Source of the DNA: Chiloscyllium plagiosum
Lineage: Eukaryota
Length of the DNA: 32,591 bases
Direction: 5' to 3'
Assembly: GCF_004010195.1 (NCBI RefSeq)
Contig: NC_057756.1
Location: 131,719 to 164,309, forward strand
Part shown: positions 1 through 29,780 of the stretch, one piece after another
How positions within the stretch are numbered: the stretch's first letter is position 1
Layout of the letters: every line of letters begins with the position of its first letter
Translations under genes and position numbers: made by a program
Notes under the pieces: generated by a model
What the model was told of the DNA's origin: nothing
The model's database searches: none
The model's input: the letters and a program-made list of their open reading frames with translations, nothing else

Positions 1-661
1 AGGGGGTAGAACCGGGCAGTGCGGGGTTCCCGGACTATGAGGTTGGAAGCTGTGGGTGGGAGATCTCCTGAGGTGATGAGGTTCTGTATGGTCTGGGAGA
101 TAATGGTTTGGTGTTGGGGGTGGGGTCATGGTCAAGGGGGCGGTAGGAAGAGGTGTCCTCGAGTTGGCGTTTGGCTTCAGCGATGTAGACGTCAATGTGC
201 CAGACTACCACTGCGCCCCCTTTGTCCGCTGGCTTGATGGTGTGGTCAGGATTGGGGCAGAGGGATTGGAGGGCTGCGCGTTGTGAGGGTGAGAGGTTGG
301 AGTGGTGGAGGGGGGTCGACAGGTTGAGGCGGTTAATGTCCCGGCGGCAGTTGGAAATGAAGAGGTCGAGGGCAGGTAATAGGCCAGCGCGTGGTGTCCA
401 GGTGGATGCAGTGTGTTGGAGGTGGGCGAGGGGGTCCTCGGAAGGTGGGCGGGAGTCCTGATTGTGAAAGTAAGCTCGGAGGCGGAGGCGACGGAAGAAT
501 TGTTCGATGTCACGGTGTGTATTAAATTCATTGATGCGTGGACGGAGGGGGACGAAGGTGAGTCCTTTGCTGAGGACCGATCGTTCGTCCTCAGTGAGGG
601 GGAGGTCTGGGGGGATGGTGAAAACTCGGCAGGGCTGGGAGCTGGGAGCTGGTGTGGGTGT
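1..661 (-). mobile_element. Penelope-like retroelement ORF fragment (region N-terminal to the RT core), continues beyond window start
   Basis: Translation has LSKGLTFVP, FFRRLRLRAYF, SNLSPSQRAALQSL and IKPADKGGAVVVW. A frameshift near 116-120 moves QTIISQTIQNLITSGDLP...PRTARFY into another frame. Confidence 0.92.
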
Positions 662-699
662 AGTATAGCACTCAAGGCCATTCAAGTTGGAAGGTACCT
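662..699 (-). CDS. Ly6/uPAR-family gene, exon 4 5' part (start of LU domain 2), interrupted by a Penelope insertion
   Basis: CTTTTCAG acceptor (AG at 701-700), phase 1, reads EVPSNLNGLECYT, the typical NGLxCY start of a second LU domain. Sequence switches to Penelope where the next Cys is expected. Confidence 0.85.
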
Positions 700-721
700 C
701 TGAAAAGTTGGCACAGAATAT

Positions 722-1396
722 TGTTATGAAGGTGTAGTTGTGAACTGTACCTTTTTGAGAGAGAGGAAGCTGGCAAGGACTGAAAGCACAGGGTGTGCTG
801 AACAATTTAAAAATGTACTTCTGGTTGACACAAATAGCTGTGCCGTGTTGCCATGGTACATAAACAAATTCAAATTTAGCCAATCAGTTTAAGTAATGCC
901 CCAGAGACCAAAATCCAATCTAATTTGAATTTAATGTTTTGATGACATTAAACCAATGAAATGGTCCGATGTTTTGAGGTCTAAAACTGGACATTTTGAA
1001 CTGTTAGGGAGAGAACGGCTTAGAACACCAACAAGTATAGATTGCTAGCTGAATAGCTGTCTGTTCAGGTGTCTGTCCATAAGAAATTTGTACAGCAGAA
1101 GACCGAAGAAAACCGACTTAGAAATATCTACAGAGGAAAATGACTTTTTTTATTTGTAAATCTTAATTTTTTTTTAATCAGACTTGTAGAGTGGGAGTAA
1201 AAGATAGGTTTAAGACAAAGGTGTTGTAAGTAGTTGTCTCATGTTCTCTTTTGGACTTAAAAATTGACAATTTTTATTCTTTACTTTAAATAGTGACCTC
1301 TAGGAAAGTTCTTTGCCTCTCCAAATGTAACAGATTATGGGGCGAAGTGAGCTGTTGGGTTTAAATTTGCAGAGGAGTTTACCCCATGTTGTAACA
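722..1396. mobile_element. Solo LTR (675 bp)
   Basis: TGTTA...TAACA termini with a perfect 4-bp TSD ATAT (718-721, 1397-1400). Confidence 0.85.
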
Positions 1397-1669
1397 ATAT
1401 TTAACTTTAGGTAAACTTTGGCTGCACACACATGGGCTGGAAGACTTTGCGGTAAACGTTACATCTCAGCATTTCAAATACAACATGCGCAGATATGTGA
1501 AGCTTCTCACAATCCGTGCTGAAGTAGGACATGGCTAGATCTTTGAACTTGCTCTGCCATTCAGTACAACCGTGGCTGATCTTGTGTATGAGCTCCAAGC
1601 TGTTTCTCATATCCTTGAGAGATTTAAAACTCTCTTGAGATCTGACTGAAATATACTCACATTGAAACT

Positions 1670-2460
1670 CTTATTGCAGATGTACTGAGATACAGTGAAA
1701 GATATTGTTTGCGTGCTCTCCAGACAAATCCTACCTTGCACAACTACACCCGGGTAGTAGAACAGAATGCAGAATGTAGTGTTACAGCTACAGAGAAGGT
1801 GCAGAGAAAGGTAAAGTCTAATATGAGAGGTGTATTCAAAAGTCTGATTACAGTGGGGGTGGCGGGGTGGCGGGAGGAAACTGTTCTTGAATCTGTACAT
1901 ATTTTCAAACTTTTGTATCTTCTGCATGATGGAAAAAAGTATAACTGGGTTGGGAGGGATATTTGAATAAGTTGGCTGCTCTGCCAAGTCAGAGGCATGT
2001 ATAGACAGAGTCACTAGTTGGAAGGCTGATTTGCGTGATGGACTGCATTCACAGCTTTCTGTAATTTCACGTGGTCATGTGTAGAGCAGTTGCCATACAA
2101 AGTTGTGATGCATCCAGATAGCACACTTTCTATGGTGCAGTTAGAAAAAAATCAATTAGAGCAGTGGTGAATTTCCTTAGCCCTCTGAGGAAGTAGAGGT
2201 GTTAGTCTGTTTCCTTAACTGTAGCATCAATGTGAATGGGCCAGAATTGATCATTTGGTGATACTTGTCCCTCTCGACCATCTCCTTCTCAGCACCATTG
2301 ATACATACAGGAATGTGTCCTCCACTCTACTTGCTGAAGTCAATGATCAGATCCTTCATTTTGCTGACATCAAAGGAGAGGTTATTGTCTTTACAGCATG
2401 CCACTAAGCACTTTCTCTTTACTAACTTGTCTCATCGTCGTTTAAGATCCAATCCGTTAT
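1670..2460 (-). mobile_element. Rex1/Babar-like LINE 3' fragment, decayed
   Basis: Shares sequence with 14055-14560 (gagcagttgccatac...tgtgat.catcc...ctttct.tggtgca) and a tail like 11975-12135. Family assignment from recollection. Confidence 0.65.
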
Positions 2461-2737
2461 GGCCATGGTTGTATTGAATGACAGAGCAAGTTCAAAGATC
2501 TAGTTCTATTCCAATTCATATATCCTTGGAGCATGGGTGTACCCAGTGCTTGCTTCTTAATTGTCAGAGAGAAGACAATGTAATCCCAATTCTTGGTAAT
2601 GAATTTCATTTGCTTTCCCTCCTATTCCCTCACTGCACTTAACTGTAGCACAGGCTGCTGTCATTTTTGTGAGTACACACACCTAAAATGCTCGGAGAAA
2701 GTCAAGACTGCAGATGGAATGCCCTTCATCAGGAATG

Positions 2738-3282
2738 ATTTGGAGATGCCGGTGTTGGACTGGGGTGTACAAAGTTAAAAATCTCACAACACCAGGTTAT
2801 AGTCCAACAGGTTTAATTGGAAGCACACTAGCTTTCGGAGCGACGCTCCTTCATAAGGTGATAGTGGAGGGTTCAATCCTAACACAGAATTTATAGCAAA
2901 AATTTATAGTGTGATGTAACTGAAATTATACGTTGAAAAATTGATTGTCTGTTAAGCCTTTCATCAATTAGAATACGGTGATAGTTTCACTTTTTTCATG
3001 TGTAAATCACAAAACCTTTTTTTTAAAACGTTGTATTCTCGGGTTAGCTGTTAACAATGGTGATAGCTAGACAATATGTTGAAGGTGTTGGCCCCCTGTG
3101 TTCTCTGTCTATGCCATGATGCTTAGATTGATTCTAATCTAAGCATCATGTAAATTTTTGCTCTATATTCTGTGTTAGGATTGAGCCCTCCACTATAACC
3201 TGATGAAGGAGCGTCGCTCCGAAAGCTAGTGTGCTTCCAAATAAACCTGTTGGACTATAACCTGGTGTTGTGTGATTTTTAA
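2738..3282. mobile_element. Penelope pLTR-derived element with inverted arms
   Basis: ~2773-2916 is the reverse complement of ~3146-3284. A 14-bp duplication CTTCATCAGGAATG flanks it (2724-2737, 3283-3296). Near-identical to 32047-32470. Confidence 0.85.
3196..3233 (+). ncRNA. Minimal type-I hammerhead ribozyme motif (Penelope pLTR)
   Basis: CTGATGA (3200-3206), A, stem II GGAGC-gtc-GCTCC, GAA, palindromic AGCT, A (CUA cleavage triplet). Confidence 0.7.
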
Positions 3283-3478
3283 CTTCATCAGGAATGTATT
3301 TTGCCTGAAACGTTGACTCTCCTGCTCTTTGGCTGCTGTTTTTTCCATCACCACAATCTTTAACTCCTAAAACGCTGACAGTGTACAGCGCTATGAAGAT
3401 ATTTTATCTGAAATATTAATTTAGAATATCATTGACTAATTTTTAGACATTCTAGAAAGCACTCTTTTTGCAAAGTGA

Positions 3479-3854
3479 CAAATCACACCGTCAGATTATA
3501 GTCCAACAGGTTTATTTGGAAGCACTAGCTTATTAAGCACTGCTCCTTCATCAACCACCTGATAAAGGAGCAGCACTTCAAAAGCTAGTGCTTCCAAATA
3601 CAGAGGAACCTTGATTATCTGGCATTCAATTAAACAATTTTGGATTATCAGAACAAGATTGCAAGGTCCCAATGCTTGGCTAACTGTTGTCTGGCATTCG
3701 ATTCTCTGGAATTTGATTAACCGAACAAAATACTTCCCATCTGTGCCCTTCGGGTAATCAAGGTTTCATCTGTAAACCTGTTGGACTATAACCTGGTGTT
3801 GTGATTTTTAACTTTGTCCACCTCAGTCCAAAACTGGCACCTCCAAATCATGAC
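3479..3854. mobile_element. Older palindromic Penelope pLTR element containing a MITE
   Basis: Inverted arms centred near 3555 with degenerate hammerhead cores; 12-bp duplication TTTGCAAAGTGA at 3467-3478 and 3855-3866. Confidence 0.8.
3601..3772. mobile_element. Tc1/mariner (Tigger-like) MITE
   Basis: TIRs CAGAGGAACCTTGATTATC / GGTAATCAAGGTTTCATCTG with TA duplication (3599-3600, 3773-3774). Removal restores the host aaataaacctg. Confidence 0.85.
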
Positions 3855-4729
3855 TTTGCAAAGTGAAACAGATTAGCTGCAGTATCCCAACTTGCAAAGC
3901 TGTTTGACTGGACTGAGTGTTCAAAATGTTCAGAGAGAGGTAGTTGTGGGTTTGAAGTTTTGGATTTGAACACAATCTGAGCAATCCTGTCTCCCTCTTG
4001 CATGTTTATTTTTCTCTTAAAACTTTTGTTATTAATGTTTGAGTTGATCTCTCATCTGAAGTGCTCGAGGGGAATTTGGAATACAGTGCCACTACCTTCA
4101 GAGAAAGCATGTTCAGCCAGCCACAACTGAGCCAGGAAGACATATTATGGATTGTGTGCAAAGTGACTTTGGCTGCAGTTGGGCATTTGATTTCACAATT
4201 TTTTTTTCTTTCTGACACTTGGCAGAATTGTACTTCCAAGATCACATTTTTATATGTTTTCACCTGAACCAGAGATGCTGTGTGCGCATGTTGGTCAGTA
4301 TGACTTTGTGCAGCATTGTCTGTGTTGTGTTGAATTTGTATAATAGTGATCCAACATATACTTGCAGTTCACCCTTACTGAATTATTTCTAAACTTTGTT
4401 CCTAGAGTAATTTTTGTTTGCAATCCGCTAATTCTTCATTTGAAACCAAAACAAAATGCTGTAGATGCTGCACTTCTGAAATGAAAACATTTGGCACCTC
4501 AGTCTTTGGGAAAGTAGGCAGTACCACTCAGCCAATGTAAACCCTATATCTTTAATGGTGGCTGGGCTGGATGGGCCGAATGGCCTACCTCTGCTCCTAT
4601 TTTCTACGTTTTGAGAGAGGTTGAAAACCAGAATGTGAGGACTGTTTAAACTTCGAAGGATGTACCACAAAGGGTATAGTTTTGCGACAGTGAAGATTTT
4701 GGTTTGTTCGTCTGCACATTTCTGCTCAC

Positions 4730-4867
4730 CTGTGAAAGGCTCATTGTTACACAGATTAGTATTGCAGTTTTTGCGTGTCTGTTTGACATTCTTGAAACCA
4801 AAATGCATTGATATGTTTCCTTCACATGTTCCACAGTCTTTAAAAAGTGTGGTTTGCTTAATTCCAG
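4730..4867 (-). CDS. Ly6/uPAR-family gene, exon 3 (second half of LU domain 1)
   Basis: TTTGCAG acceptor, 138-nt phase 1-1 exon GIKQTTLFKDCGTCEGNISMHFGFKNVKQTRKNCNTNLCNNEPFT ending in the CxxxxCN LU motif, GTGAG donor. Confidence 0.9.
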
Positions 4868-5334
4868 CTGCAAACATAAAGAACATGGTTCACCTTCCAA
4901 TATTTAAGGTACGTCCTTCATCACTTTACAACAATGTGTTTACTCCACCCGTTTCCCATCCATCTATCCACCTATTTGTTGATTATACCTGTTCATTAAT
5001 GTATTTGTTTGCCTATTTGATTAGTAACTCTCCAAATTACTTCATCCATTTGTGAATTGATAAATATGTTTTATAGCATACCTTTGAGGTAAACTTGCTC
5101 TTGTCCCAGCAGAGCTTCAGGCTGCTCAATAATCTAAAAGGCATTTGAATCAGTGCCAACACAGAGCTGAGGAAAGCCGTTTGGGGGGACTGGCATTAAT
5201 CGTTCAAAAACCGCGCACACAGATGAAAGATATTAGAGGCATTCAGTTTTGGCAAAGAGGAGGGAGGGGCAGAGAGAGAGAGAGACTGACTGACTGTGTT
5301 ACCCCAATTTTTCATGACAAATTCATGTACTCTG

Positions 5335-5830
5335 CATATCCCTGCACACTATGGGGCAATTTATCTTGGCCAATACACCTAACCAGCACATGTTTGGACT
5401 GTATGAGAAAACCAGAGCACCCAGAGGAAACCCACCCACACACCGGGCAGCACGGTGGCACAGTGGTTAGCACTGCTGCCTCACAGCACCAGAGACCCGG
5501 GTTCAATTCCCGACTCAGGCGACTGACTGTGTGGAGTTTGCACATTCTCCCCGTGTCTGCGTGGGTTTCCTCCGGGTGCTCCGGTTTCGTCCCACAGTCC
5601 AAAGATGTGCTGGTCAAGATGTGCTAAATTGCCCGTAGTGTTAGGGAAAGGGGTAAATGTAGGGGAATGGGTGAGTTGCGGGTCGGTGTGGACTTGTTGG
5701 GCCGAAGGGCCTGTAAGTAATTTAATCTAAGTAATCTAATCTAATCTAATCAAACACCACACACAGCCACCTGAGGCTGGAATCTAACCTGGGTCCTTGG
5801 TGCTTTAAGGCAGCAGTGTTAACCACGGAA
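5335..5830 (-). mobile_element. Older HE1-type SINE split by a younger opposite-strand SINE
   Basis: 5335-5444 and ~5755-5830 are reverse-complement SINE body and head. Confidence 0.75.
5445..5751 (+). mobile_element. HE1-type tRNA-derived V-SINE
   Basis: A box TGGCACAGTGG, B box GGTTCAATTCC, core GTGGAGTTTGCACATTCTCCCCGTGTCTGCGTGGGTTTCC, (TAATC)n tail. Confidence 0.9.
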
Positions 5831-5879
5831 GTTACATGGAAGTCATTAGGGTAAATATTAATGGGTCTGGCCCTAATTG

Positions 5880-6380
5880 TGTTACTATACATTCTAGATC
5901 AAGAATCCCCAACCAATTGAAATAGTTTATCTTTATTTACATTGTTTTTTCCTGTTGCTATCATAAAGATTTGAAACAGATTGCCCTTTAACTTCCTAAG
6001 TTCTATAGAAAATGGGCCTGGTTTGCAATTTCTCCTCATAATGTAACTCCTAAAGGTCAGCTATCATCTTGTAAACCTATGTTGTACTCCCTTCAAGGCC
6101 ATCTATCCTTCCTAAGGTCTGGTAGTCAGATCTGGTCACAGAGCTCCAAGTAGAGTCTAACCAGAATTTTGTATAATTACAGCATAACTTCTGCATCCTT
6201 ATACTCCAGTCTTCTAGATACAGCATTTCATTGGCTTTCTTTCTATTTTCTATATCTGTTCATGGCATTTTAACTGCCAAATCTCTTAGGACATTCACTG
6301 TATTTAACTTCATAGTATCTTAAAAAGTATCCCATCTATCCTTTTTATGTCTACAATGGATAACCTCACATTGCATGTTA
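5880..6380 (-). mobile_element. Old CR1 LINE ORF2 3' fragment
   Basis: Degenerate reverse-complement similarity to the CR1 at 20735-21922 (RxxLEYxxQxW region). Confidence 0.6.
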
Positions 6381-6816
6381 ACTTTACATACTAGCTTGTG
6401 TAACATATAATACAATGATTGGGTTCTTACTGAGACAGAGATATCTTGAAGTTTTTTTTGCACTATTTATATTTCTATATGACCTCAGACTTCGAACATA
6501 AAACATAGAAAAGTACAGCACAGAACAGGCCCTTCAGCCCACGATGTTGTGCCGACTTGTGTATAGAATGTGTTCTATTCTTACTGATATTACTGTAGGT
6601 TGTATGCACATAACTGACTGAACACACTCCACTGACCCCATTATACTCCAATAGTGACTGAAACTGAGGCTAATGCTTTTATACTGCAATGTCACATGTT
6701 GTCATGACATAGAACTGTCTTTAAATGTACACTGCCTCTCTGACCTATAAGCTATGCTTGACACAACAGATTCAATCAATGACAACAAGCAAAAGTTAGA
6801 ATCTCCAGAAAATTAC

Positions 6817-6933
6817 CAGCCCTTATTGAGATTGAAATTGTCTTGCAGCTGTTGATTCCAGAGACCCAAGTGATTTGTTTGGTCATGCATGTACGCCCTT
6901 GGGCGTTGCAAAAGTAACAGGTGAGAGATTGCA
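6817..6933 (-). CDS. Ly6/uPAR-family gene, exon 2 (first half of LU domain 1)
   Basis: (TC)n-TTTCCAG acceptor, 117-nt phase 1-1 open exon QSLTCYFCNAQGRTCMTKQITWVSGINSCKTISISIRA with the LxCxxC start motif, GTAATT donor. Confidence 0.9.
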
Positions 6934-6999
6934 CTGGAAAGAGAGAGAGAGAGACAAATTTAGCCAGTTAAATACTGTGGCTACAGGAGCAGGTCAGAG

Positions 7000-7280
7000 A
7001 CAAGGAATGCTGCTGCATGTAACTTGCCTTCTGATTCCCCAAAGCCTGCCGCCATCAACAAGGCACAAGTCAGGATGTGATGGAATATTCCCCAATTGTC
7101 TGGATGGATGCAGTTCCAATGACACTCAAGAGACTTGACACCATCCAGGACAAAGCATCCACTCCTTCCACCATCGATGCTCAGAAACAGCAGTGTGTAC
7201 CATTGACAAGACATTAAGCATTGTTCCTTAGCTAGCACTTTCCAAAGCCACAGCTACCATCATTCAGAAGGACGAGGGGT
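7000..7280 (+). mobile_element. L2/Crack-like LINE fragment
   Basis: Decayed reading LIPQSL...KAQVR..MEYSPIVWM.A.P.TLKRLDTIQDKA. Confidence 0.6.
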
Positions 7281-8132
7281 CAATCCTTCATTTAAAAAAA
7301 ACATGGTGCAGCCAATTTAAGACAGGGATGCATTAGTTTATGACTTGGAAGAAGAAAACAAATGTACCACAGCAAAATTTGCAAAACTAGGTGGAAAATA
7401 GTTTGAGAGAGGCAGACACATAATTTACAGAGAAATATTGAGAGATGAGTTGCAGGACTCTAAATCTTAACTACTAACAATTTCTGTTTTTGGCCTACTC
7501 CTGTTCCTATTTCTTATGGTCATATTGTCTTAATATAGAGTAAAAAGGAACAAAAAAAATCAGGAAAGGAACAGGCCCTCTAAGCTTGCGCAACACATTT
7601 TACCCTTCTATATTAAAGCTGTCTTCAGTTACAGGATCTGTATTCCTCCGATCCTTTCCTATCCATGTGTTCATCCAGGTGCTACTATATCAGCTTCTAC
7701 CAACTCCTGGAGGAGCAACTTCCATGCACTCACCATACTTTGTATAAAAAGACCTGTGTTAATTTTTAAAATGGCTTCTAAAGGGATGGTGGGCCAATTT
7801 GAGGTAATTGTCATCCTAGGCGGACTAGTTTCCTCTTCTAAGTGAACTTGGGACCTTTGGAACATGCTTCATGGAGTCTTTAAACTTTCTGGTGGAGTAA
7901 AGGCACACATAATGGCCTGGTTTCTGCAGTGATGATTCATCTGTCTCCTGTCACAAAGCAGGCAGAACCTTGTAAAGTCATAAGGTTTTCAAAATTTGAA
8001 CATTTTTCTCCATTGATTCATCATGCCATGACAAACCATTGACACACAATGGAGAGCGATTGATAGCACCTGTTCCTACTCACAAGGGCTCTGATTGAAG
8101 TGCGCAAAGGTCTGAGGGTCATAGACTGAGTA

Positions 8133-8276
8133 CACAGGAACCTCGATTTTCCAGCATTCAATTATCTGAATATCAGATTATCCGGCAAGATCGTAAGGTC
8201 CCGATGCTTGGCTAAACTATGTTATCTGGAAGTCAATTATCTGGAATTCAATTCACCAAATGAAATACTCCCTGCC
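8133..8276. mobile_element. Truncated second copy of the 3601-3772 MITE
   Basis: TA + CACAGGAACCTCGATT start and shared internal aaggtccc.atgcttggcta. Right TIR missing. Confidence 0.75.
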
Positions 8277-8277
8277 T

Positions 8278-8610
8278 ATGATAAATGGATAAATGATAGG
8301 GAGAATCCTTTCCCATTAATAGAAGGGCCAATAACCAGGTGGCACAGTTTTATGAAAAAGAGCAGGAGTGTTTGAGGGGATTTGAGGAATTTTTTTTTCA
8401 CCCAGAGGATGATAGGAATCTGGTATATACTGCCTCCAAAGGGTGGTAGTGACAGGAATCCTTGCAACATCGAAGAGTATTAGGTGTACAATTCAATCAT
8501 CACAGCATACAAAGACTATAGACCAAGTGCTGGAAAATATGATTAGAATAGATAGGTGTTTGATGACCAGTACAGCCATAATTGGCTGAAGGGCCCCCTT
8601 CTGAGTTTTA
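8278..8610 (+). mobile_element. CR1 3' end fragment
   Basis: TRGH.F...NFF.QR...IWY.LP-like reading followed by CR1 3' UTR. Confidence 0.65.
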
Positions 8611-8619
8611 AAATAATCT

Positions 8620-8900
8620 TCGACCATCTAGAAGCACAAGGGCAGCAAATAAACAGGAACGTTATGCCCTGTAAGATCTCCAAGCCATTCAACATCCACA
8701 CTTGGAAATATGTTACCTTTCCTTCAATGTCACTGGATCAAAATCCTGGAATTTCTCCCCTAAGGACGTTGTAAGTCAACCCACAGCATATGAACTGCAG
8801 AGGGTCAAGAAGACAACTTGCCAACACCTTCTCAAGGGGCAACTAGGGATGGGGCAATAAATTCTGGCTGAGTAAGTCATATGCACATTCCACAAATGAA
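8620..8900 (+). mobile_element. L2/Crack-like LINE 3' end
   Basis: Tail ctcaaggggcaactagggatggggcaataaa. The start resembles the end of 7000-7280. Confidence 0.6.
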
Positions 8901-8999
8901 GTGAAGTTGCTGAGTTTCAGCCCACTTCCATCAACTGAATAAACCATGATTTACAACACCTGTATTGAGCATTTCCCAATGTTCTCAGGCTACTGCCAT

Positions 9000-9720
9000 C
9001 ATTCAAGAAGACTGGCACGCTAGCACTGTGCTGCTGTTTCGAAAAGAGAGAACTGGACAGTTTGAGTTACCCGAAGCAGACTGCCCTCACCTCACTGCTG
9101 GGCAAATAGTAGGTCACATTGCTGCATAAGTCATCCCTTCAAAAGGCACACATTAGCATTAAATGTCGGCAGGGTTTAGTCAAATGAAAGTCAAATCTGA
9201 TGAGTTGGATTGAATTTTTCAAGCAAGCTCACAATGAGAGCCAATGAAAGTCAGGCATTTAACATGAGAAGTTGACCTTAGCAAGGCTTTGGCACAGAAG
9301 GTTATAATCTTCTGTCTGGACTGGGAAAGGACTAAAAATGCAGGTCTTTCAGTATCCAAAATAAAAAGTAACAGTTGACAGGGGGTTTCCACCAGGATTT
9401 CAGTACTTGCTGTTTTCCTGCCATAAAGCAGGATGAAGAATCTTTCTGACAATCTGGGAGTTGGTTACATGGTTAACAATGAGGAACAAGTTGTGGACTT
9501 CAGGCTTGTTACAGGAGACTGAACGGAGTAGGCTGAAGTTGTCTCTCAGGAAAACAGAATTGAAATTTGTGACCTGTAAAATTACAAGGAAACACATGAA
9601 GTGGATAAAAAGGACTTATTTCTGTTAGCAGGATGGTCAAAGCAATTCATAGAGGTTTTGGAGGGATGTTGAGGGGAGTCTGTGAGCGTAGAGTAAGTCC
9701 ACTAACTCAATGGGTGGCCA
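9000..9720 (+). mobile_element. Ancient CR1 RT relic
   Basis: Remnants of EDW...LF.K, SLTS..GK and GVPQGSVL motifs in the expected order. Confidence 0.5.
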
Positions 9721-10031
9721 TGTGAGAAACCATCAACACACTTCAATAACCCTCATTTGCACATTTGACATCCCTGAACCTTTGAGATTTTAGAGCAAAG
9801 GGGATATTGAAAACTTTAACACTTCTCTGAACAGTACTTGATATCCACCAGATTCAGAAACTGGCACAAGGGAAGAGGCAGTCACCTCACTTCAAGGTTA
9901 AATGTAGCCGTGTGACTGAATCTTGAATACAGTTATACAAATTCTGATTGCCCAAGACTACAAGAAAGTATAAGAGAGTTGTGAATGCAGCCCATCATGC
10001 AAACCAGCCTTCTGTACATTGACTCTGTCTA

Positions 10032-11970
10032 GAGTCGTAGAGTTATACAGCATGAAAACAGACCCTTCAGTCCAACCAGTCCATGCCGATCATAATCTCA
10101 AACTAAACTAGTATCACCTACCTGCGCTTGGCCCAGATCTCTCCAAACATTTCTTTTCGTGTATTTCTCCAAACATTTTTTGAACATTTGTAACTGTACC
10201 CGGATCAACCACTTCCTCTGGAAGTTCATTCTACATGAAACACTTCATATGTAAAAAGGTTGCCTTGGCTGAGGGATGACCTTATAGAGGCTTATAAGAT
10301 CATGAGGGGCATGAATAAGATAAATAGAGAAAGTCTTTTCCCTGATGTGGGTGAGTCCAGAACTACAGGCCATAGGTTTAGGGGAAAGATATAAAAGGGA
10401 CCTAAGGGACAACTTTTTCACACAGAGGGTGTGTGTGTATGGAATGAGCTGCCAGAGGAAATGGTGGAGGTTGGTACAATTGCAGCATTTAAAAGGCATC
10501 TGGATGGGTATATGAATTGGAAGGGTTTAGAGGGTTATGGGCCAAGTGCTGGTAAACAAGACTATATTAGGGTGGGATATCTGGTCGGCATGGACGAGTT
10601 GGACCGAAGTGTCTGTTTCTGTGCTGTACATTTCTATGACTCTGTCTCTTTTGAATCATTCTCCTTTCACCTTAAAAGTATTCCCCCAGACTTAAAATCT
10701 CCCAACATGGGAAAGACATCTGTCATTCACCTTATCTAACCCCTCAAGATTTACAAACATCTATAAGGCCACCGGTCAACCCCTATGCTCCAGTGAAAAG
10801 GTTCCAACCTCTGCTTATAACTCGATCCTTCCATTCCCAGCAACATCCTGGTAAATCTCTTCTGAACCCTCTCCAGCTTCCTAATATCCTTCCTGTAACA
10901 GAACTGCAGGTACTACTCCAGAAGAGGCCTCACCAACGTCCTGTACAACTTAGCATAACCTCCCAACCCCGATTCACAAATGTCTGAGCAATGAAGGCAT
11001 GCACTAAATGCCTTCTTAACCACCCTGTCTATATGTGATGCAAATTTCAAAGAATTATGAACCTGAACTCCTCGGTCTCTCTGTTTTACAACACGACCCA
11101 ATGCCCAACTTCTAATGGTATAAGCCCGACCCTTGTTTGTTGTACCAATTTGCATTTGCCCAAATTAATCTCCATCTGCCATTCCTCAGCCCATTAGGAC
11201 TCTTGATCAAGTTCCATCTTTAAGCTTTTATCATTTTCTTCATTGTCCTGTCATGATGCTGTTCCTTTAAGAAGGTTATGTTGTCCTTAGTTTTTTTTTT
11301 GGTGCAGCTATAAAAACACAGGCTCCAGGAGGCCTAGGTTTGAAGGGTTTCAGTGCCAATTTGATTATATCTAACAGATACTGCTGTAGGTAAAAGGCTT
11401 TCAAGTTTTTTTTAAAAAGTGTACAATGAAAGGGGAATGGTCAGTTCTCCCAGCTCAGCTTTTATCTGGGTTTGGTCTTGGTTTTAGCAGGCAGAGTTGT
11501 GAAGTTGCTGGATCCAAAGAAGCAAATCCATGCTGATCCTCCTTGTCCTTGACATCTCTCCTGTAAGACCCTGTGTTTGATTTTTACCTTTTTTGCCAAG
11601 GGGTGTTTATGGGGATTGTTGCAAATATTTGGAACAGCATCATTAAATTGGGATAATCTGTTGGGTTTTTGGATAGGTTTAGTTATTCTATATACTGTTC
11701 CATTTTGTTCGCGTTTCATTCAGTAATCTTGCAAATAAATTCTGTTTTGTTTAAAACTAAGTGGTTGGGTCAGCTGCATCACTCCTGGGATATCCACTGT
11801 ACACCTGCTTAAAACAATGAGTAAAGTTACGGTCTGAGCTACTTTCTTGAAATGTTTTGATGGGGTCTAGCCTGGCCTGATCCATAACAGTTCACTATAC
11901 CACAATTTTGGTGTCATCCACAAACATACTAACCAGGCTTTCGATATTTTCATCCAAGTCATTTACATAA
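10032..11970 (-). mobile_element. CR1 3' fragment containing an opposite-strand CR1 (~10270-10645) and a solo LTR
   Basis: Minus-strand IDRVVKKAF, LYRTLVRPLLE and DDTKI motifs. The plus-strand insert reads WNELPEEMVEVGTIAAFKRHLDGYM. Confidence 0.8.
11249..11889 (+). mobile_element. Solo LTR (641 bp) inside CR1
   Basis: TGTCATG...CATAACA termini, GTCC/GTTC flanks (1 mismatch), AATAAA near 11735. CR1 rejoins across it. Confidence 0.85.
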
Positions 11971-11974
11971 ATGT

Positions 11975-12135
11975 TATCAGACTTGTGAATGGACCTCTTG
12001 TATATTAGACTTGATCTTTCTCCACCCCTTCTTTGTAGCTGCAACATTATATTCTGCATTCTATTCTGTTACCCTGATGTATGATTTGTCTGGTTAGCAT
12101 GCAAAACAATACTTTTCACTGTATTTCACTGTACT
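11975..12135 (+). mobile_element. Rex1/Babar-like LINE 3' tail
   Basis: Reverse-complement match to 1670-1850. A further piece lies at ~9945-10031. Confidence 0.6.
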
Positions 12136-12141
12136 TTTCAT

Positions 12142-12450
12142 GGGCAGTGCGTGGTTAGCTGCTCATACCACCAGGGACCCAGGTTTGATTCCAGTCTTAG
12201 GCAACAATCTATGTGCAGTTTTCACACTCTCCCCATGTCTGTAGGGGGGTTTCCTCTGGGTGCTGTGGTTTCCTCCGCACTCCCGAGATGTGCAGGTTTG
12301 GTGGATTGGCTATGCTAAATTGCCCATATTGCCCAGGCATGTGCAGACTAGACGGGTTACAGGGTTAGGATGGTGGGAGTGGGATACTCTTCAAAGGGTC
12401 GTTGTGGATTGAATGGGCCAAATTGCCTACTTCCACAATGTAGGGATTCT
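12142..12450 (+). mobile_element. HE1-type SINE (diverged)
   Basis: tRNA-like head, V-SINE core and CR1-like tail similar to 5445-5751. Confidence 0.8.
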
Positions 12451-12479
12451 CTGTATATCGATACATGTTGCAGTAGTGA

Positions 12480-14050
12480 ATGCAGGAACAAGATTAGACT
12501 CAGCCTCTTCAGCCTTCACCACCATTCAGTGTTGTTCTGGATCTAGCCTCAAATCCACATTCCCAATTACCCCTCATAACCTTTCACCCCTTTGATTAAC
12601 AAGAATCTATTCACCTCTGCCTTAAAAAGAGAAAAATGAAACTTGCCCAATCTCCGGTTTAAATGGCTGAGCTTTGATTTCGAAACAGTAGCTGCTTTTT
12701 CTCCCAGCAGAGGAAGTATCCTCTCCACAGCTGCTCTGTCAAGAACCCTCGGGATCTTTTTATGGTTCCTTCCAAGCCACTCACCATACTGATTTGGAAG
12801 TTTTTTGCTGTTCCTGCAGTGTCACCGGGCCGAACTCCTGGAGGTCTGTTCCTAAGTCATGGAGTGGTTTGAGAAGGTCCGTTTTAATCGATGCGCCACA
12901 TTATGGATTGGCACTGCACCTGTCCAGTGACAACCTCTTCCTATGACAGAATTTAAAAACAATGTTCCAATCGAGTCACTTCTTATTCTTTGAAAGTCCA
13001 GCAGATACAAGCCTGGCCTGTCTTGCCTTTCCTCATAAGATAGCAGACTCACTCCCAGTCCACCGAACCTTCTTTGAACAGCCTTCAACATGTGAGAAAC
13101 AAAAGCTCACTCACTGTAATAATTTCAGTCCGAGACTAATTTCTGATCAGCCATTTATTTGTACACCTATAGATGGGTGCTTTGTCTAATTACCTGGTAA
13201 GGTAATGACAAAATGCACACCAAATCCAACAAACTCTCGAAATTTATACAGTTTGAATCCCCATATTTTTCCTTATTCCATTGTTTGTTCCCTGCTTCGC
13301 TTACGTCACAGATTTACTTAAGACTGATCCCACAACTTCTGTTTATCCTGTCTTGTCCGTGACAAACTCTTATCTCTGACTTCCATAAGGGTGTTTTACG
13401 TCAGTCTATTGTAGATTATTGATTAGGCATATCTTTTCTTCTATCAGCATCTATTTCCATCCAGAGGCCACTTTGACCTCTTTGATTAGGGTTTGTTCCT
13501 GTGTCCCCGTGTAAGGGGGAAACAGATGCTTTCCTGTTTGCCCATATATCCACCATTGTTCTGTATTCACGTCTCATGCTAACATATCCTTTCTTTTTGC
13601 TGAATATGTATTTCTCATTCCTATTCTGTATCAGAATTTATACTTGCAGAAATAACATTAATTCATTTATATCCCACAAATATATTTATATTGTCCCATA
13701 AATCAAACACCTAAGGCTCTATCCAGTACTCCATGTGTGGTTTCACTTGTATAACAAAAGCATAACTTCCTAATTTTTGTATTCAATTCCCCCCACATTA
13801 ATTATAACACCCTATTCGCTTTCCTGGCCATTTGCCTGATATGCACAGTACCCTTTTGTGCTTCAAGCAGGACAACATGCTTCTATCTAAGTGGGCAGTT
13901 GCACATTTCCAACACCTTTGTGCACACCCATGGCTTATCTGTATTGTTTTTGGAAATGTCCTTATCGCCACTTCGCCGCTTTCCTTCCTCATCATTCTTT
14001 GTGTGATCCGTAATTTTCTCAACCATGCCTTCCATTCTTGCATCTAGTCT
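12480..14050 (-). mobile_element. Old CR1 fragment interrupted by a solo LTR
   Basis: LKAVQRRF...LSYEER.DR.GLY.L reading and a decayed KFADDTK region near 14000. Confidence 0.65.
13091..13678 (-). mobile_element. Solo LTR (588 bp) inside CR1
   Basis: TGTGAGA...TCCCACA termini, AACA/AATA flanks, TTTATT near the left end (minus-strand polyA signal). CR1 continues on both sides. Confidence 0.75.
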
Positions 14051-14054
14051 TTTT

Positions 14055-14560
14055 GATTTTATTTCATTTAATTTACTGTTGTCACATGTACTGCGAAGCA
14101 GTGATAAGTCTTGTTTTGCATGCTCCACACAAAGTACTTCAGGGAAGCAGAACAAAGTGCAGAATACAGTGCCCCAGCCACAGAGGAGGTCAGAGAGAGA
14201 TCAACATTAACACTTGAGAGGTTTATTAATAAGTTTGATAACAGTGGGGATGAAGCTATTCTACGTGTGTTCAAACTTTTAGATCTTCAGCTCAATGTGA
14301 GAGGGTGAAAGAACGTTTAATTGGGTAGGAAGGGTCTTTGATTTTGTTAGTTGCAGTGGGAACTATAGACAAGAGTCAATGGGAGAAAGGCTAGTTTGTG
14401 TGACGGACTGGATTATGTTCACAAATTCTCTGGAGTCTCTTGCAGTCTTGGGAAGAGCAGTTGCCATACCACCCTGTGATACATCCTGTGCTTTCTGTGG
14501 TGCATCTATTAAAACTGGCAAGTGTCTTTGTGGATATTGAAAAGTCCACTTCTTTGAGGC
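14055..14560 (-). mobile_element. Rex1/Babar-like LINE 3' fragment
   Basis: Colinear similarity with 1670-2200. Confidence 0.65.
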
Positions 14561-14869
14561 TTTTTCAATCCAGAAGTGATATCACTTCAACTGTCTCTAC
14601 CCCTCACCGCAGTAAATTGCTGGTGTCTCCCACCCAATAAATTACAGACACTCTCCGACATAAATGATCTCTTGCCTTGGTTCTCACTGCATGCTGTGAT
14701 AAGCAATGCCCTCACTTCGAGGAACTGCCTATTATTCAGTTTGAATATTGTCTAAAGTTTAGACATTTTAGGACATATCTCCAATTAAGCAATTGAGCAT
14801 AATTACAGTTATTCAGCTTTATCAGTAGCACACAAATTGCAATCACTAATTTAATTAATAAACTCTCAC

Positions 14870-14915
14870 TTTCAGCAACAAAAATACTGATAAGAATGCT
14901 TTCAAACAGCTGCAT
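14870..14915 (-). CDS. Ly6/uPAR-family gene, exon 1 (signal peptide MQLFESILISIFVAE)
   Basis: Minus strand aaaATG at 14915, 15 mostly hydrophobic codons + 1 nt, then GTGAG donor at 14869. Phase 1 joins exon 2 to give ...VAEMQS|LTCY. Confidence 0.75.
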
Positions 14916-23054: not shown

Positions 23055-23236
23055 ATAGGGGCAGTGTCGAGGGGTGAGGTATCTGAGGTAGTTTCTTTAC
23101 TCAGAGCAGTAGGGGCATAGAAAGCACTGCCAGCAACAGTAGTAGACCCGCCAGCTTTAAGGGCATTTAAATGGCATTGGATCGGCATCTGGACGAGAAT
23201 GGAATAGTGTAGGTTAGATGGGCTTCAGATTGGTTC

Positions 23237-23736
23237 AACACTTCAACTCCCCCTCCCACTTCACCAAGGATATGCAGGTCTTTGGACTCCTCCATCGCCA
23301 GACCACAACAACACGACGGTTGGAGGAAGAGCGCCTCATCTTCCGCCTAGGAACCCTCCAACCACAAGGGATGAACTTGGATTTCACCAGTTTCCTCATT
23401 TCCCCTCCCCCCACCTTGTCTCAGTCAAATCCATCGAATTCAGCACCGCTTTCCTTACCTGCAATCTTCTTCCTGACCTCTCCGCCCCCACCCCAGTCTG
23501 ACCTATCACCCTCACCTTGACCTCTTTCCACCTATCACATTTCAGACGCCCCTCCCCCAAGTCCCTCCTCCCTACCTTTTATCTTAGCCTGCTGGACAAA
23601 CTTTCCTCATTCCTGAAGAAGGGCTTATGCCCGAAACGTCGATTCTCCTGTTCCCTGGATGCTGCCTGACCTGCTGCGCTTTTCCAGCAACACATTTTCA
23701 GCTCTGATCTCCAGCATCTGCAGTCCTCACTTTCTC
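23237..23736 (+). mobile_element. 5'-truncated Penelope element: GIY-YIG C-terminus plus pLTR
   Basis: HFNSPSH...RRLEEERLIFRLGTLQPQGMNLDF; perfect 14-bp TSD CTTCAGATTGGTTC (23223-23236, 23737-23750). Confidence 0.92.
23609..23644 (+). ncRNA. Minimal hammerhead ribozyme motif (Penelope pLTR)
   Basis: CTGAAGA (23613-23619), A, GGGC-ttat-GCCC, GAA, palindromic ACGT, C (GUC triplet, cleavage predicted after 23640). Confidence 0.75.
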
Positions 23737-23972: not shown

Positions 23973-24268
23973 TGATTAGATTACCTACAGTGTGGAAACA
24001 AGCCCTTTGGCCCAACAAATACACACCGACACTCCGAAGAGCAACCCACCCAGACCCATTCCCCTCCATTTTCCTCTTCACCTAACACTATGGGCAATTT
24101 AACATGGCCAGTTCATCTAACCTGCATATTTTTGGACTGTGGGAGGAAACCGGAGCAAACCCACGCAGACAGGGGGAGAATGTGCAAACTCCACACAGTC
24201 AGTTGCCTGAGGTAGGAATTGAACCCGGATCTCTGGCGCTGTGAAGCAGCAGTGCTAGCCACTGTGCT
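23973..24268 (-). mobile_element. HE1-type SINE
   Basis: Reverse complement of the 5445-5751 type. Confidence 0.9.
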
Positions 24269-24392
24269 GCTTGTGTTGAGACAGAAGTTTGTTTCTGGAA
24301 GGATTTGTGCGCTCATCAGTCTTGATGGTACTGTCAAGCACAGAGGCATCAATCAGCAAATGACTGAGGATCACGTCAAATAGGATTATCCA

Positions 24393-27300
24393 ACACTGGG
24401 GTACGGCTCCCACACAAATGCTGTCTCTCACTGAGGTATGGGTCCCACACACACTGACTCTCATTGGGGTACAGGTCCCACACACACACTGACTCTTACT
24501 GGGGTATGGGACCCACACGCACTGACTTTCACTGGGGTACGGGTCCCACACACACATTGATTCTTACTGGGGTATGGGACCCATACGCACTGACTCTCAC
24601 TGGGGTACAGGTCCCACACACACACTGACTCACTGGGTATGTGTCCCACACACACACAGTCTCTCACTGAGGTATGGGTCCCACACACACACTGACTCCC
24701 ACTGGGGTTTGGGACCCACACACACTGACTCTCACTGTGGTATAAGTCCCACACCCACACTGTCTCTCACTGAGATACAGGTCCCACACACACACTGACT
24801 CACACTGGGGGTACGGGTCCCATACACACTGACTCTCACTGGGGTACGGATCTCACACACACATTGGCTCACACTGGGGTACGGGTCCCACACACACACT
24901 GACTCACACTGGGATAAGAGTCCCACACACACTGACTCTTAGTGGGGTACAGGTTCACCACACCCTGACTCTCACTGGTGTAGGGGTCCCACACACACAT
25001 TGACTCTCACTGGGGTACAGGTTCAACCCACCCTGACTCTCACTGTGGTACAGGTCCCACACACACTGACTCTCACTGGGGTACAGGTGCCACGCATACA
25101 CTGACACTCACTGGGGTACAGGTTCCACACACACATTGACTCTCACTGTGGTACATGTCCCGCACACACACTGTCTCTCACTGAGTTACGGGTCCCACAC
25201 ACCACTGACTCCCACTGGGATAGGGGTCCCACGCAGACACTGACTCTCACTGTGGTACGGGTCCCACACACGCACACAATCTCTCACTGGGGTACAGCTC
25301 CCACACACACACACTGACTCTCACTGGGGTTTGGGATCCACACGCACTGACTTGCACTGTGGTACAAGTCCCACACCCACACTGTCTGTCACTGAGGTAC
25401 GGGTCACACACACACACTGACTCTCACTGGGGTAAGGGTCCCACACACACACTGACTCTCACTGGGGTACAGGTTCCACACACACACACACTGACTCTCA
25501 CTGGGGTACAGGTGCCACACACACACTGACTCTCACTGGGGTACAGCTCCCACACACACACTGACTCTCAGTGGGGTTTGGGACCCACACACACTGACTC
25601 TCACTGTGGTACAAGTCCCACACCCACACTGTCTCTCACTGGGGTACGGTTCCCACACACCGACTGACTTACTGGGGTACAGGTACAACCCACCCTGACT
25701 CTCACTGGGGTAGGGGTCCCACATACACACTGACTCTCACTGTGGTACAAGTCCCACACACACATTGACTGTCACTGGGGTATAGGTTCCACACATACTG
25801 ACTCTCACTGGGATACAGGTCCCACACACACACTGACTCTCACTGGGGTACAGGTCCCACACACACACTGACTCTCACTGGGGTACGGGTCCCAGACACA
25901 CACTGACTCTTACTGGGGTACGGGTCGCACACACACACTGACTCTCACTGGGGTACGGGTCCCGCACACACACTGTCTCTCACTGTGTTACGGTGCCACA
26001 CACCCACTGACTCCCACTGGGATAGGGGTCCCACACACACACTGACTCCCACTGGGATAGGGGTCCTATGCACACACTGACTCTCACTGGGGTACAGGTT
26101 CCACACACACACTGACTCTCACTGGGGTACAGGTGCCACACATACACTGACTCTCACTGGGGTACAGGTCCCACACACACACTGACTCTCACTGTGGTAC
26201 AGGTTCCACACACACATTGACTCTCACTGGGGTACAGGTCCCACACACACACTGACTCTCACTGGAGTACGGGTCCCACACACACACACAGTCTCTCACT
26301 GAGGTATGGGTCCCACACACACACACTGACTCCCACTGGGATAGGGGTCCCACACACACACTGACTCCCACTGGGATAGGGGTCCTACGCACACACTGAC
26401 TCTCACTGGGGTAGGGGTCCCACACACACATTGACTCTCACTGGGATACAGGTTCCACACACACACTGACTCTCACTGGGGTACAGGTGCCACACATACA
26501 CTGACTCTCACTGGGGTACGGGTCCCACACACAACTGACTCCCACTGGGGGTACGGGTCCCATACACACACTGACTCACACTGGGGGTAGGGGTTTCATA
26601 CACACTGACTCTCACTGGGGTATGGATCTCGCACACACATTGGCTCACACTGGGGTACGTGTCCCACACACACACTGACTCTCACTGGGGTACAGGTTCA
26701 ACATACACTGACTCTCACTGGGGTACAGGTTCAACACACACTGACTCTCACTGGAGGTACGGGTCCCATACACACTGTCGGACACTGGGGTACAGGTCCC
26801 TCACACACACATTGGCTCACACTGGGATAAGAGTCCCACACACACACTGACTCTTAGTGGGGTACAGGTTCAACACACACTGACTCTCACTGGGGTATAG
26901 GTTCCACACACACATTGACTCTCACTGTGGTACAGGTCCCACACACACGCTGACTCTCACTGTGGTACGGGTCACACACACTGACTCTCATTGGGGTACA
27001 GGTCCTACACACACACTGACTCTCACTGGGGTACAGGTGCCACACACACACACTGATTCTCACTGGGGTACAGGTGCCTCACACACACACTGATTTTCAC
27101 TGGAGTACAGGTCCAACACACACACTGACTGTCACTGTGGTACAGGTCCCACACACACACTGACACACACTGGGGTAAGGGTCACACACACACACTGACT
27201 CTCACTGGGTTACGGGTCCCACACACACACTGTCTCTTACTGGGGATACAGGTCCCATACACACTGACTCTCATTGGGGTACGGCTCTTACACACACACA

Positions 27301-29643
27301 CATTGGCTCACACTGGGGTACGGGTCCCACACACACACTGACTCTCACTGGTGTACAGGTCCCACACACTGACTCTCACTGGGATACAGGTGCCACACAC
27401 ACACACTGACTCTCACTGTGGTACAAGTCCCACACCCACATTGCCTCTCACTGGGGAACGGGTCCCACACACACACTGACTCACAGTGGGGTGCTGGTCC
27501 CACACACACTGACTCACACTGGTGTACAGTCCCACACACACGCTGACTCTCACTGGGGTACGGGTCACACACACACACTGACTCTCATTGGGGTACAGGT
27601 CCTACACACACACTGACTCTCACTGGGGTACAGGTGCCACACACACACACACACACACACACTGACTCTCACTGGGGTACAGGTGCCTCACACACACACA
27701 CTGATTCTCACTGGAGTACGGGTCCCACACACACACTGACACACAATGGGGTAAGGGTCACACACACACACACTGATTCTGACTGGGGTATGGGTCTCAC
27801 ATACACACACACTGACTCTCACTGGGGTATGGGTCCCACACACACACTGTCTCTCACTGGGGTACGGGTCCCACACACACACTGACTCTCACTGGTGTAC
27901 AGGTCCCACACACACAATCTCTCACTGAAGTATGGGTCCCACACACTGACTCTCACTGGGGTACGGGTCCCACACACACACAGTCTCTCACTGGGGATAC
28001 AGGTCCCATACACACTGACTCTCACTGGGGTACGGGTCCCACACACACACACACACACACATTGGCTCACACTGGTGTACAGGTCCCACACACACACTGA
28101 CTCTCACTGGGATACAGGTGCCACACACATACACTGACTCTCACTGTGGTGCAAGACCCACACCCACATTGCCTCTCACTTGGGTACGGGTCCCACGCAC
28201 ACACTGACTCACACTGGGGTACTGGTCCCTCACACACTAACTCACACTGGTGTATAGTCCCACACAAACACTGACTCTCACTGGGATATGGCTCCCACAC
28301 ACACACACTGACTCACACTGGGAAAGACGTCCCACACACATTGACTCTCACTGGGGTACAGGTTCCACACACACTGACTCTCACTGGGGTACAGGTCCCA
28401 CACACACAGACTCTCACTGGGGTACAGGTTCCACACACACTGACTCTCACTGGGGTACAGGTCCCACACACACATTGCCTCTTACTGGGGTACAGGTCCC
28501 ACACACACACTGAATCTCACTGGGGTACAGGTTCCACACACACACTGAATCTCACTGGGGTACAGGTCCCACATACACACTGTCTCTCACTGGGGTACGG
28601 GTCCCACACACACACTGACTCTCACTGGTGTACAGGTCCCACACACACAGTTTCTCACTGAAGTATGGGTCCCACACACTGACTCTCACTGGGGTACGGG
28701 TCCCACACACACACTGTCTCTCACTGGGGATACAGGTCCCATACACACTGACTCTCACTGGGGTACGGATCTTACACACACACATTGGCTCACACTGGGG
28801 TACGGGTCCCACACACACACTGACTCTCACTGGTGTACAGGTCCCACACACACAGTCTCTCACTGAAGTATGGGTCCCACACACTGACTCTCACTGGTGT
28901 ACAGGTCCCACACACACACTGACACTCACTGGGGTACAGGTGCCACACACACACACTGACTCTCACTGTGGTACAAGTCCCACACCCACATTGCCTCTCA
29001 CTGGGGTATGGGACCCACACACACACTGACTCACAGTGGGGTACTGGTCCCACACACACTGACTCACACTGGTGTACAGTCCCACACACACTGACTCTCA
29101 CTGGGATATGGGTCCCACACACACACACTGACTCACACTGGGGTAGGCGTCCCACACACACTTACTCTCACTGGGGTACAGGTTCCACACACACTGACTC
29201 TCACTGGGGTACGGGTCCCACACACACATTGACTCTCAGTGGGGTACAGGTTCCACACACACACTGAATCTCACTGGGGTACAGGTTGCACACACACACT
29301 GACTCTTACTGTGGTACAGGTTCCACACACACTGACTCACTGGGATGTGGGCCCCACACATACACAGACTCACACTGGGGTAGGCGTCCCACACACACAG
29401 ACTCTCACAGGGGTACAGGTTCCACACACACTGACTCTTACTGGGGTATGGGTCCCACACACACACTGACTCACACTGGAGTACAGGTCCCACACACACA
29501 CTGACTCTCACTGGGGTACGGGGACCACACACACACTGACTCACACTGGGGTACAGGTTCCACACACACACTGACTCACACTGGGGTATGGGTCCCAAAC
29601 ACACACTGACTCTCACTGGGGTACGGGTACCACACATACACTG
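24393..29643. repeat. Tandem satellite/minisatellite, ~33-37-bp unit, roughly 150 copies
   Basis: Consensus CTGACTCTCACTGGGGTACAGGTCC(CA)n, with a variable CA tract. Confidence 0.98.
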
Positions 29644-29780
29644 TGGCTGGTTTGAGTGAATGGCTAGTGAATAACAAAGTATATAATGTGTGAAAGCTCA
29701 GAGGCTGTCACATTGGCAGGAAGATTGGTGCACCACAATGTTATTTCAAGCGAAAGAGAAAGCAGAGTGTGGCCTTTAGT

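What the first reader, a model, noticed from the sequence alone, without database searches (positions are those of the whole stretch)
35..14915. Hidden Ly6/uPAR gene whose fourth exon fuses in frame to a Penelope retroelement ORF
Seen: four exons with canonical GT/AG sites, all phase 1. After EVPSNLNGLECYT (699-662) the frame runs without a stop into Penelope protein (TPTPAPSSQPCRVFTIPP...KPADKGGAVVVW...) until TAG at 37-35. Splicing gives 46+117+138+665 = 966 nt, a 321-aa signal peptide + LU domain + ~200-aa Penelope chimera. Known: multi-LU uPAR/PLA2-inhibitor-like genes use phase-1 half-domain exons. Inference: either an insertional knockout of a paralog or a new secreted chimera. An in-frame, same-strand insertion has about a 1 in 6 chance, so it does not itself imply selection.
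Basis: partly seen in the sequence, partly recalled or inferred. Interest (0 to 1): 0.78.

Follow-up and report, generated by a model that had tools for sequence, protein, structure and literature searches.

The report
Penelope insertion in decayed shark gene
A young Penelope-type retrotransposon sits inside exon 4 of a bamboo-shark Ly6/uPAR gene copy that carries several other breaks, so the open in-frame fusion is likely a chance by-product in a dead duplicate and not a new secreted protein.

Summary
In detail: four GT/AG phase-1 exons give a 966-nt, 321-aa frame that runs from a Ly6/uPAR (LU) gene into Penelope protein. It is an insertion. The rest of exon 4 lies 2.8 kb left, beyond an assembly gap, and a perfect 16-bp target-site duplication frames the element. 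The host is one of three tandem copies of a two-LU, GPI-anchored PLA2-inhibitor-like gene; copy C equals an annotated Chiloscyllium plagiosum protein. This copy (A) is broken beyond the insertion: 2 of 10 LU1 cysteines lost, an 11-nt frameshift in exon 5, exon 6 (GPI signal) deleted, and a 9.9-kb LTR element in intron 5. The Penelope part is 98.5% like its sister copies and stops before the RT core at a frameshift that 6 of 29 sisters share. Its changes look neutral (7 nonsynonymous, 2 synonymous), and 14 of 29 sisters stay open as long. Verdict: an ordinary insertion into a probable pseudogene, in frame by chance. Side finding: the insertion holds 258 bp of unique flank from another Penelope site, either captured or misassembled.

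The parts
14870..14915 (-). Exon 1 of LU gene copy A (signal peptide); one codon shorter than in paralogs B and C
6817..6933 (-). Exon 2, first half of LU1; fourth Cys changed to Trp (TGC>TGG)
4730..4867 (-). Exon 3, second half of LU1; eighth Cys changed to Arg (TGC>CGC)
660..699 (-). First 40 nt of exon 4 (start of LU2). The other 83 nt lie left of the window at G000:C47:129559-129477
660..675 (-). Upstream copy of the 16-bp target-site duplication TTGAGTGCTATACTAC; second copy at G000:C47:129575-129560; last 4 nt are microhomology with the element
1..659 (-). 5'-truncated Penelope-like ORF fragment: Pro/Thr linker end, N-terminal region and DKG motif, then a 1-nt frameshift that ends the fused frame at TAG 37-35. 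The insertion continues left through a 1121-N gap, a captured or misjoined flank and three partial pLTR units (2802 nt between the TSDs)

Best explanation
A 5'-truncated Penelope-like element sits in exon 4 of one of three tandem two-LU gene copies, framed by a 16-bp target-site duplication, and this copy was likely already a decaying pseudogene, so the in-frame fusion is likely chance. Inferred mechanism: the element's GIY-YIG endonuclease nicked the exon, reverse transcription started at the pLTR end, copied (probably with template jumps) and stopped inside the ORF's Pro/Thr linker, and it joined the target through 4 nt of microhomology. Strand and phase happened to match (about 1 in 6). The frame stays open because the copy is young, and it ends at a frameshift inherited from the source lineage. 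Any fused mRNA would encode a mis-disulfided LU1 plus a Penelope fragment without RT or endonuclease core, and would likely be a nonsense-mediated-decay target if exon 5 is spliced on.
For: TSD 16/16 and rest of exon 4 found; uninterrupted exon 4 in paralogs B and C. CTAC shared by target and element. The junction is seen in another data set: X14 contig 637-783, 147 nt, 0 mismatches, though only 23 letters lie on the element side, under the tool's 31-letter bar. Other lesions: C39W and C87R, both Cys kept in 6 of 6 other rows; 3-nt deletion in exon 1; exon 5 is 130 nt against 141 in C, a frameshift with stop; 354-bp deletion of exon 6 with its acceptor and GPI signal; 9.9-kb LTR element in intron 5 whose LTRs differ at 9 of 173 sites, against 1.5% for the Penelope copy and its nearest sisters. 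Penelope part: 9 differences from both nearest sisters, 7 nonsynonymous and 2 synonymous; terminal frameshift shared by 6 of 29 sisters; 14 of 29 sisters open for 200+ codons from the same base. An intact paralog C exists, identical to annotated P0027, with 80-84% relatives in two other species.
Against: Exons 1-4a keep an open frame and canonical splice sites, and the signal peptide is still hydrophobic (best 8-residue mean 3.16, against 3.06-3.54 in three homologues). The A-branch ratio upstream of the insertion is 0.57 (8.5 nonsynonymous of 99.7 sites, 3.5 synonymous of 23.3), no higher than for B (0.92) or intact C (0.75), so dN/dS does not show decay. Two Cys losses after the insertion have a rough 5% chance, so 'dead before' is likely, not shown. 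One X1 contig lies exactly on exon 5 with unlaid ends on both sides, so part of the locus is probably transcribed and spliced. One exon-5 Cys loss is polymorphic (X1 and X11 carry the Cys letter), so less damaged alleles may exist.
Confidence: 0.86

Rival explanations
1. The insertion itself knocked out a working gene; all other lesions came afterwards or are private to this haplotype, and intact empty alleles may still segregate.
For: The element is young (16/16 TSD, 98.5% to sisters). The exon-5 Tyr/Cys site differs between samples. The X14 junction contig has low depth (7.07), which could mean heterozygosity.
Against: Five further lesions in about 630 coding nt are many for 1.5% divergence. 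The intron-5 LTR pair is more diverged (5%) than the Penelope copy. The X1 exon-5 contig has no gap, so it shares the frameshift.
Confidence: 0.09
2. The fusion is expressed and kept: a secreted protein with one altered LU domain and about 180 aa of Penelope N-terminal domain, a new host-transposon gene.
For: Open 321-aa frame with intact splice sites and a plausible signal peptide. Loss of the GPI exon would not matter to it.
Against: Two disulfide partners lost singly; neutral-looking changes in the Penelope part; 26-aa out-of-frame tail inherited from the family. X1 and X11 contigs run unspliced through the exon 3 donor (records 8 and 16; neither run is on record as RNA). None of 40 hits to the exon 4a+Penelope peptide (121-385 aa searched) carries an LU domain.
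Confidence: 0.03
3. The junction at 660 is an assembly artefact beside a gap.
For: The window ends at an N gap. Penelope tandem structures are known to trouble short-read assemblies (PMC8557442, passage). The interior of the insertion holds DNA from another contig.
Against: The exact TSD on both sides and the independent X14 contig across the junction.
Confidence: 0.02

Closest known systems
Shark two-LU PLA2-inhibitor-like genes (P0021 Stegostoma 'phospholipase A2 inhibitor CNF-like'; P0027 C. plagiosum 'phospholipase A2 inhibitor 25 kDa subunit-like'); mammalian counterpart in architecture: PINLYP
   Same: Signal exon plus four phase-1 half-domain exons; 58-60% identity over exons 1-4; same tandem cluster as P0027's gene (paralog C).
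   Different: Copy A lacks 2 of 10 LU1 cysteines, LU2 is split and frameshifted, and the GPI exon is deleted.
Endonuclease-containing Penelope-like elements, likely Neptune clade
   Same: DKG motif, 5' truncation, partial tandem pLTRs with minimal-hammerhead-like motifs, TSD (features as in PMC8557442 and PMC4209133, passages). Sister copies carry RVT_1 and a GIY-YIG-type motif preceded by a Cys motif.
   Different: This copy's RT and endonuclease region is frameshifted and falls in a gap; it holds a 258-bp foreign flank.
Penelope-mediated capture of unrelated DNA in Adineta vaga (PMC3846280, passages)
   Same: Unrelated sequence between Penelope parts and inside one TSD; read-through transcripts and template jumps are proposed there.
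   Different: Here the passenger is a short non-coding flank of another insertion, and misassembly is not excluded.
Host-transposon fusion genes such as SETMAR (recalled, from no call)
   Same: Host exons joined in frame to transposon protein.
   Different: Those are fixed, expressed and under purifying selection, and typically arise by splicing into an intronic or downstream element. Here the element splits an exon, and neither selection nor expression is shown.

Membership tests
Two-LU PLA2-inhibitor-like (Ly6/uPAR) gene, by descent | Homology to LU proteins and phase-1 half-domain exons | tested here: met
   57-60% identity to four shark proteins with PF00021; exon sizes match paralogs
Functional two-LU GPI protein | Ten paired cysteines in LU1 (or a whole pair lost together) | tested here: not met
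   C39W and C87R; by the recalled LU pairing each belongs to a different disulfide
Functional two-LU GPI protein | Complete second LU domain | tested here: not met
   Exon 4 split by the insertion; exon 5 short by 11 nt with a stop
Functional two-LU GPI protein | C-terminal GPI signal exon | tested here: not met
   354-bp deletion relative to paralog B removes exon 6
Functional two-LU GPI protein | Cleavable signal peptide | tested here: inconclusive
   Hydrophobic core like homologues, one codon missing; no signal-peptide predictor available
EN+ Penelope-like element | pLTRs in partial tandem, 5' truncation, TSD | tested here: met
EN+ Penelope-like element | DKG motif, RT and C-terminal GIY-YIG endonuclease | tested here: met
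   DKG in this copy; RVT_1 E 6.5e-08 in sister L047; GIY-YIG-type motif by pattern in 2 of 29 sister loci. RT and EN of this copy are not visible (gap)
EN+ Penelope-like element | Minimal hammerhead motif in pLTR | tested here: inconclusive
   CTGATG(A/G)..GAAAC core with a GGGC/GCCC stem three times; no Rfam hammerhead match; cleavage untested
Neptune clade | [quoted passage not shown] | tested here: inconclusive
   A Cys/His motif lies upstream of the GIY-YIG in L061 and L071; no tree with named clades was built
Domesticated host-transposon fusion gene | Purifying selection on the transposon part | tested here: not met
   7 nonsynonymous and 2 synonymous of 9 differences; small counts
Domesticated host-transposon fusion gene | Spliced fusion transcript | tested here: inconclusive
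   No contig or read showed it, but the runs are few and of unknown tissue
Domesticated host-transposon fusion gene | Fixed in the species and shared with relatives | not testable with these tools
   No relative genomes are held; lays could not genotype

The most novel reading that the evidence does not exclude
The locus makes a secreted LU1-Penelope N-terminal-domain protein: a duplicate that lost its GPI anchor and two disulfides was reused, giving a host gene built from a Penelope-like ORF. Four paper searches listed no such case.
Probability: 0.03. Interest if true: 0.7.

Novelty: new member of a known kind. Interest (0 to 1): 0.2.

Why it matters
As it most likely stands, it is a clean worked example of Penelope integration in a vertebrate exon (16-bp TSD, 4-nt microhomology, partial tandem pLTRs) and of birth-and-death turnover in a shark Ly6/uPAR cluster: one intact copy, two broken. 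It also warns that young Penelope copies make long in-frame 'chimeras' by chance. If the 258-bp passenger is real, it would be a traceable case of flank capture by a vertebrate Penelope element, with a known donor site. A functional chimera would matter much more but is improbable.

Tried and rejected
Pfam on single exons: no LU hit for 3 of 3 pieces, too short. Word-based protein search with exon 3, longer proteins: nothing; the HMMER profile search found the family. No RNA holder was listed for window 600-4900; this is no evidence on expression. X15 (single-cell raw reads, about 2% of the run read) laid nothing on the bins of exons 3 and 5; X1 and X13 had no contig over 665-712. These holes prove nothing and are not counted. 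No empty-site joint or loose end was listed, but 291 joints and 1548 + 33 loose ends were hidden by repeats, so polymorphism is untested; of 24 listed runs only X1, X11, X13, X14 and X15 were laid. dN/dS between paralogs (0.69-1.04; branch values) does not separate live from dead copies. The 7-row protein tree groups C with the Hemiscyllium and C. punctatum proteins but leaves A unresolved. No protein of copy A and no chimera was among 4 hits to P0021 (113-363 aa searched), which is weak evidence. Rfam found no hammerhead in the pLTRs. Earlier scan notes: none. The idea that X1's exon-5 contig comes from another assembled paralog was rejected: B and C match far less (C 73%; B only in two short pieces). 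The idea that it is an exon 3 > exon 5 skip is unlikely: the exon 3 end would match 4 more bases than were laid. No structure was predicted, because the spliced domain is not an unchanged stretch of the window.
Full report
Observation. The window is G000:C47:131719-164309. On the minus strand, exons at 14915-14870, 6933-6817, 4867-4730 and 699-35 have GT donors and CAG acceptors, are all phase 1, and give 966 nt = 321 aa + stop. Residues 1-114 are host; 115-321 come from a Penelope-like element.

It is an insertion. Left of the window lie a 1121-N gap, 258 bp of non-Penelope DNA, three partial pLTR units and then the rest of exon 4, which ends at a GT donor. The 16-mer TTGAGTGCTATACTAC stands at window 675-660 and at contig 129575-129560; 2802 nt including the gap lie between. 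Sister copies continue upstream in a Pro/Thr-rich linker and share CTAC with the target, a 4-nt microhomology, so the element is 5'-truncated inside its ORF; one sister reads about 275 codons further upstream (L044). A contig of run X14 covers 637-783 with no mismatch. It has 23 letters on the element side, below the tool's bar of 31, so it supports but does not formally bridge the junction.

The host gene. Exon searches found two paralogs on the same contig: B at 207.5-184.5 kb (minus) and C at 354-371 kb (plus), both with an uninterrupted exon 4. A profile of exon 3 found 20 proteins; the 10 looked up are all named shark proteins, several as uPAR-like, LYPD8-like or PLA2-inhibitor-like. P0021 from zebra shark has two LU domains and a hydrophobic tail. 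Paralog C is identical over exons 1-5 to P0027, a Chiloscyllium plagiosum 'phospholipase A2 inhibitor 25 kDa subunit-like' protein, with 80% and 84% relatives in Hemiscyllium and C. punctatum. The genome is therefore most likely C. plagiosum. Two-LU proteins are what cartilaginous fish were reported to have in place of three-LU uPAR (PMC6337849, passages).

Copy A is broken in many places. Exon 1 lacks one codon. LU1 has Cys>Trp and Cys>Arg where 6 of 6 other rows keep Cys; by the usual LU pairing (recalled) these break two different disulfides. Exon 5 is 130 nt against 141 in C and runs into a stop. A 354-bp deletion with ATC microhomology removes exon 6, its acceptor and the GPI signal. A 9.9-kb LTR element with a 4-bp TSD sits in intron 5; its LTR ends differ at 9 of 173 compared sites. 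Paralog B is broken too: a GG acceptor at exon 2 and a 2-nt deletion in exon 4.

The Penelope half shows no sign of selection. It is 98.5% and 98.3% identical to the two nearest of 29 fetched sisters (40 matches scored of 6380 candidates). At 9 sites it differs from both: 7 nonsynonymous, 2 synonymous, about the neutral ratio, on small counts. The 1-nt deletion that ends the frame 26 codons later is shared by 6 of 29 sisters, so it was inherited. From the same base, 14 of 29 sisters stay open for 200 codons or more. The fused part ends shortly after the DKG motif and before the RT core; a sister has RVT_1 further on and two sister loci show a GIY-YIG-type motif behind a Cys motif, which suggests the Neptune clade (PMC8557442, passages). 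None of 40 hits to the exon 4a+Penelope peptide carries an LU domain.

Order of events (inferred). At 1.4% divergence, two or more hits among ten Cys codons have about a 5% chance, and three indels plus an older-looking LTR insertion add to that. The gene was likely decaying before the element came. Against this: dN/dS on the A branch (0.57) is no higher than on intact C (0.75), the signal peptide is still hydrophobic, and one exon-5 Cys loss is polymorphic, since X1 and X11 carry the Cys letter at L028:66.

Transcripts. Run X1 (RNA by guess only) has one contig, depth 5.5, laid exactly on exon 5 (L028:25-155, 4 differences, no gap) with 16 and 13 unlaid letters at its ends. This looks like spliced RNA that shares the frameshift; I did not see the unlaid letters. 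Its upstream end fits exon 4b better than exon 3, so an RNA starting in the 3' pLTR is possible (inference; Penelope pLTRs hold the start site, PMC8557442 passage). X1 and X11 contigs run unspliced through the exon 3 donor. No spliced exon 3-4a-Penelope piece was listed, but the data are too thin to count this as absence.

Side finding. Just after the gap, 516 nt of the insertion match C33:7250585-7251100 at 98.45%, including 258 nt of flank that occurs only at these two places. At C33 that flank borders another short Penelope insertion with its own 15-bp TSD. The 1.55% difference equals the difference between this copy's ORF and its sisters, which fits real capture from a read-through transcript with a template jump better than a misjoin (my odds about 0.6). 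Capture of unrelated DNA between pLTRs is known in Adineta (PMC3846280, passages). A misassembly beside the gap is not excluded.

Literature seen: passages of PMC8557442, PMC3846280, PMC4209133 and PMC6337849; search listings only for the rest. No supplements were read; those of PMC6337849 may list shark two-LU genes. No listing described this locus or an LU-Penelope fusion, within a library that lacks most subscription papers.

Verdict. Interest 0.2; a functional chimera has a probability of about 0.03.

Noticed in passing
L006:8597-8340 (G000:C47:130596-130339) and L073 (G000:C33:7250586-7250843): 258 bp of unique flank from another Penelope insertion site, plus that site's pLTR start (516 nt, 98.45%), lies inside this insertion: flank capture by template jump, or misassembly.
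   Followed up: partly
G000:C47:123329-113392 (L006-L007): A 9.9-kb LTR element (TG..CA, 4-bp TSD GTAG, two gaps) in intron 5 of copy A. The bases after the first LTR resemble a tRNA primer site of retrovirus-like elements (recalled, not tested). Described only.
   Followed up: partly
G000:C47:207525-184512 (L015-L018): Paralog B: six exons, GG in place of AG at the exon 2 acceptor and a 2-nt deletion in exon 4, so a second probable pseudogene; it keeps the GPI-signal exon.
   Followed up: partly
G000:C47:353963-371194 (L023-L025): Paralog C is intact over exons 1-5 and equals P0027; its exon 6 falls in an N gap (373914-374413). Its intron 5 end is 96.7% identical to B's, far closer than their exons, which suggests gene conversion or a misjoin.
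   Followed up: partly
L028:2987-3742 (pLTR units): Three minimal-hammerhead-like cores (CTGATG(A/G)..GAAAC with a GGGC/GCCC hairpin) in tandem, as described for Penelope pLTRs; Rfam gave no match.
   Followed up: partly
L028:25-155 (exon 5): An X1 contig bounded exactly by exon 5's splice sites, although exon 6 is deleted in this assembly; its flanking exons are unknown.
   Followed up: partly
window 24258-29697: Long tandem array of short degenerate units; not examined.
   Followed up: no
window 21921-20890 (-) and 23218-23517 (+): A 344-aa open frame that looks like a CR1/L2-type reverse transcriptase end (by eye), and a 100-aa fragment like the end of a Penelope endonuclease (no Pfam hit).
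   Followed up: no
G000:C47 near 8.01 Mb and 10.30-10.36 Mb; C68099: Further LU-type exon matches on the same contig and an unplaced one, pointing to a larger LU gene family.
   Followed up: no
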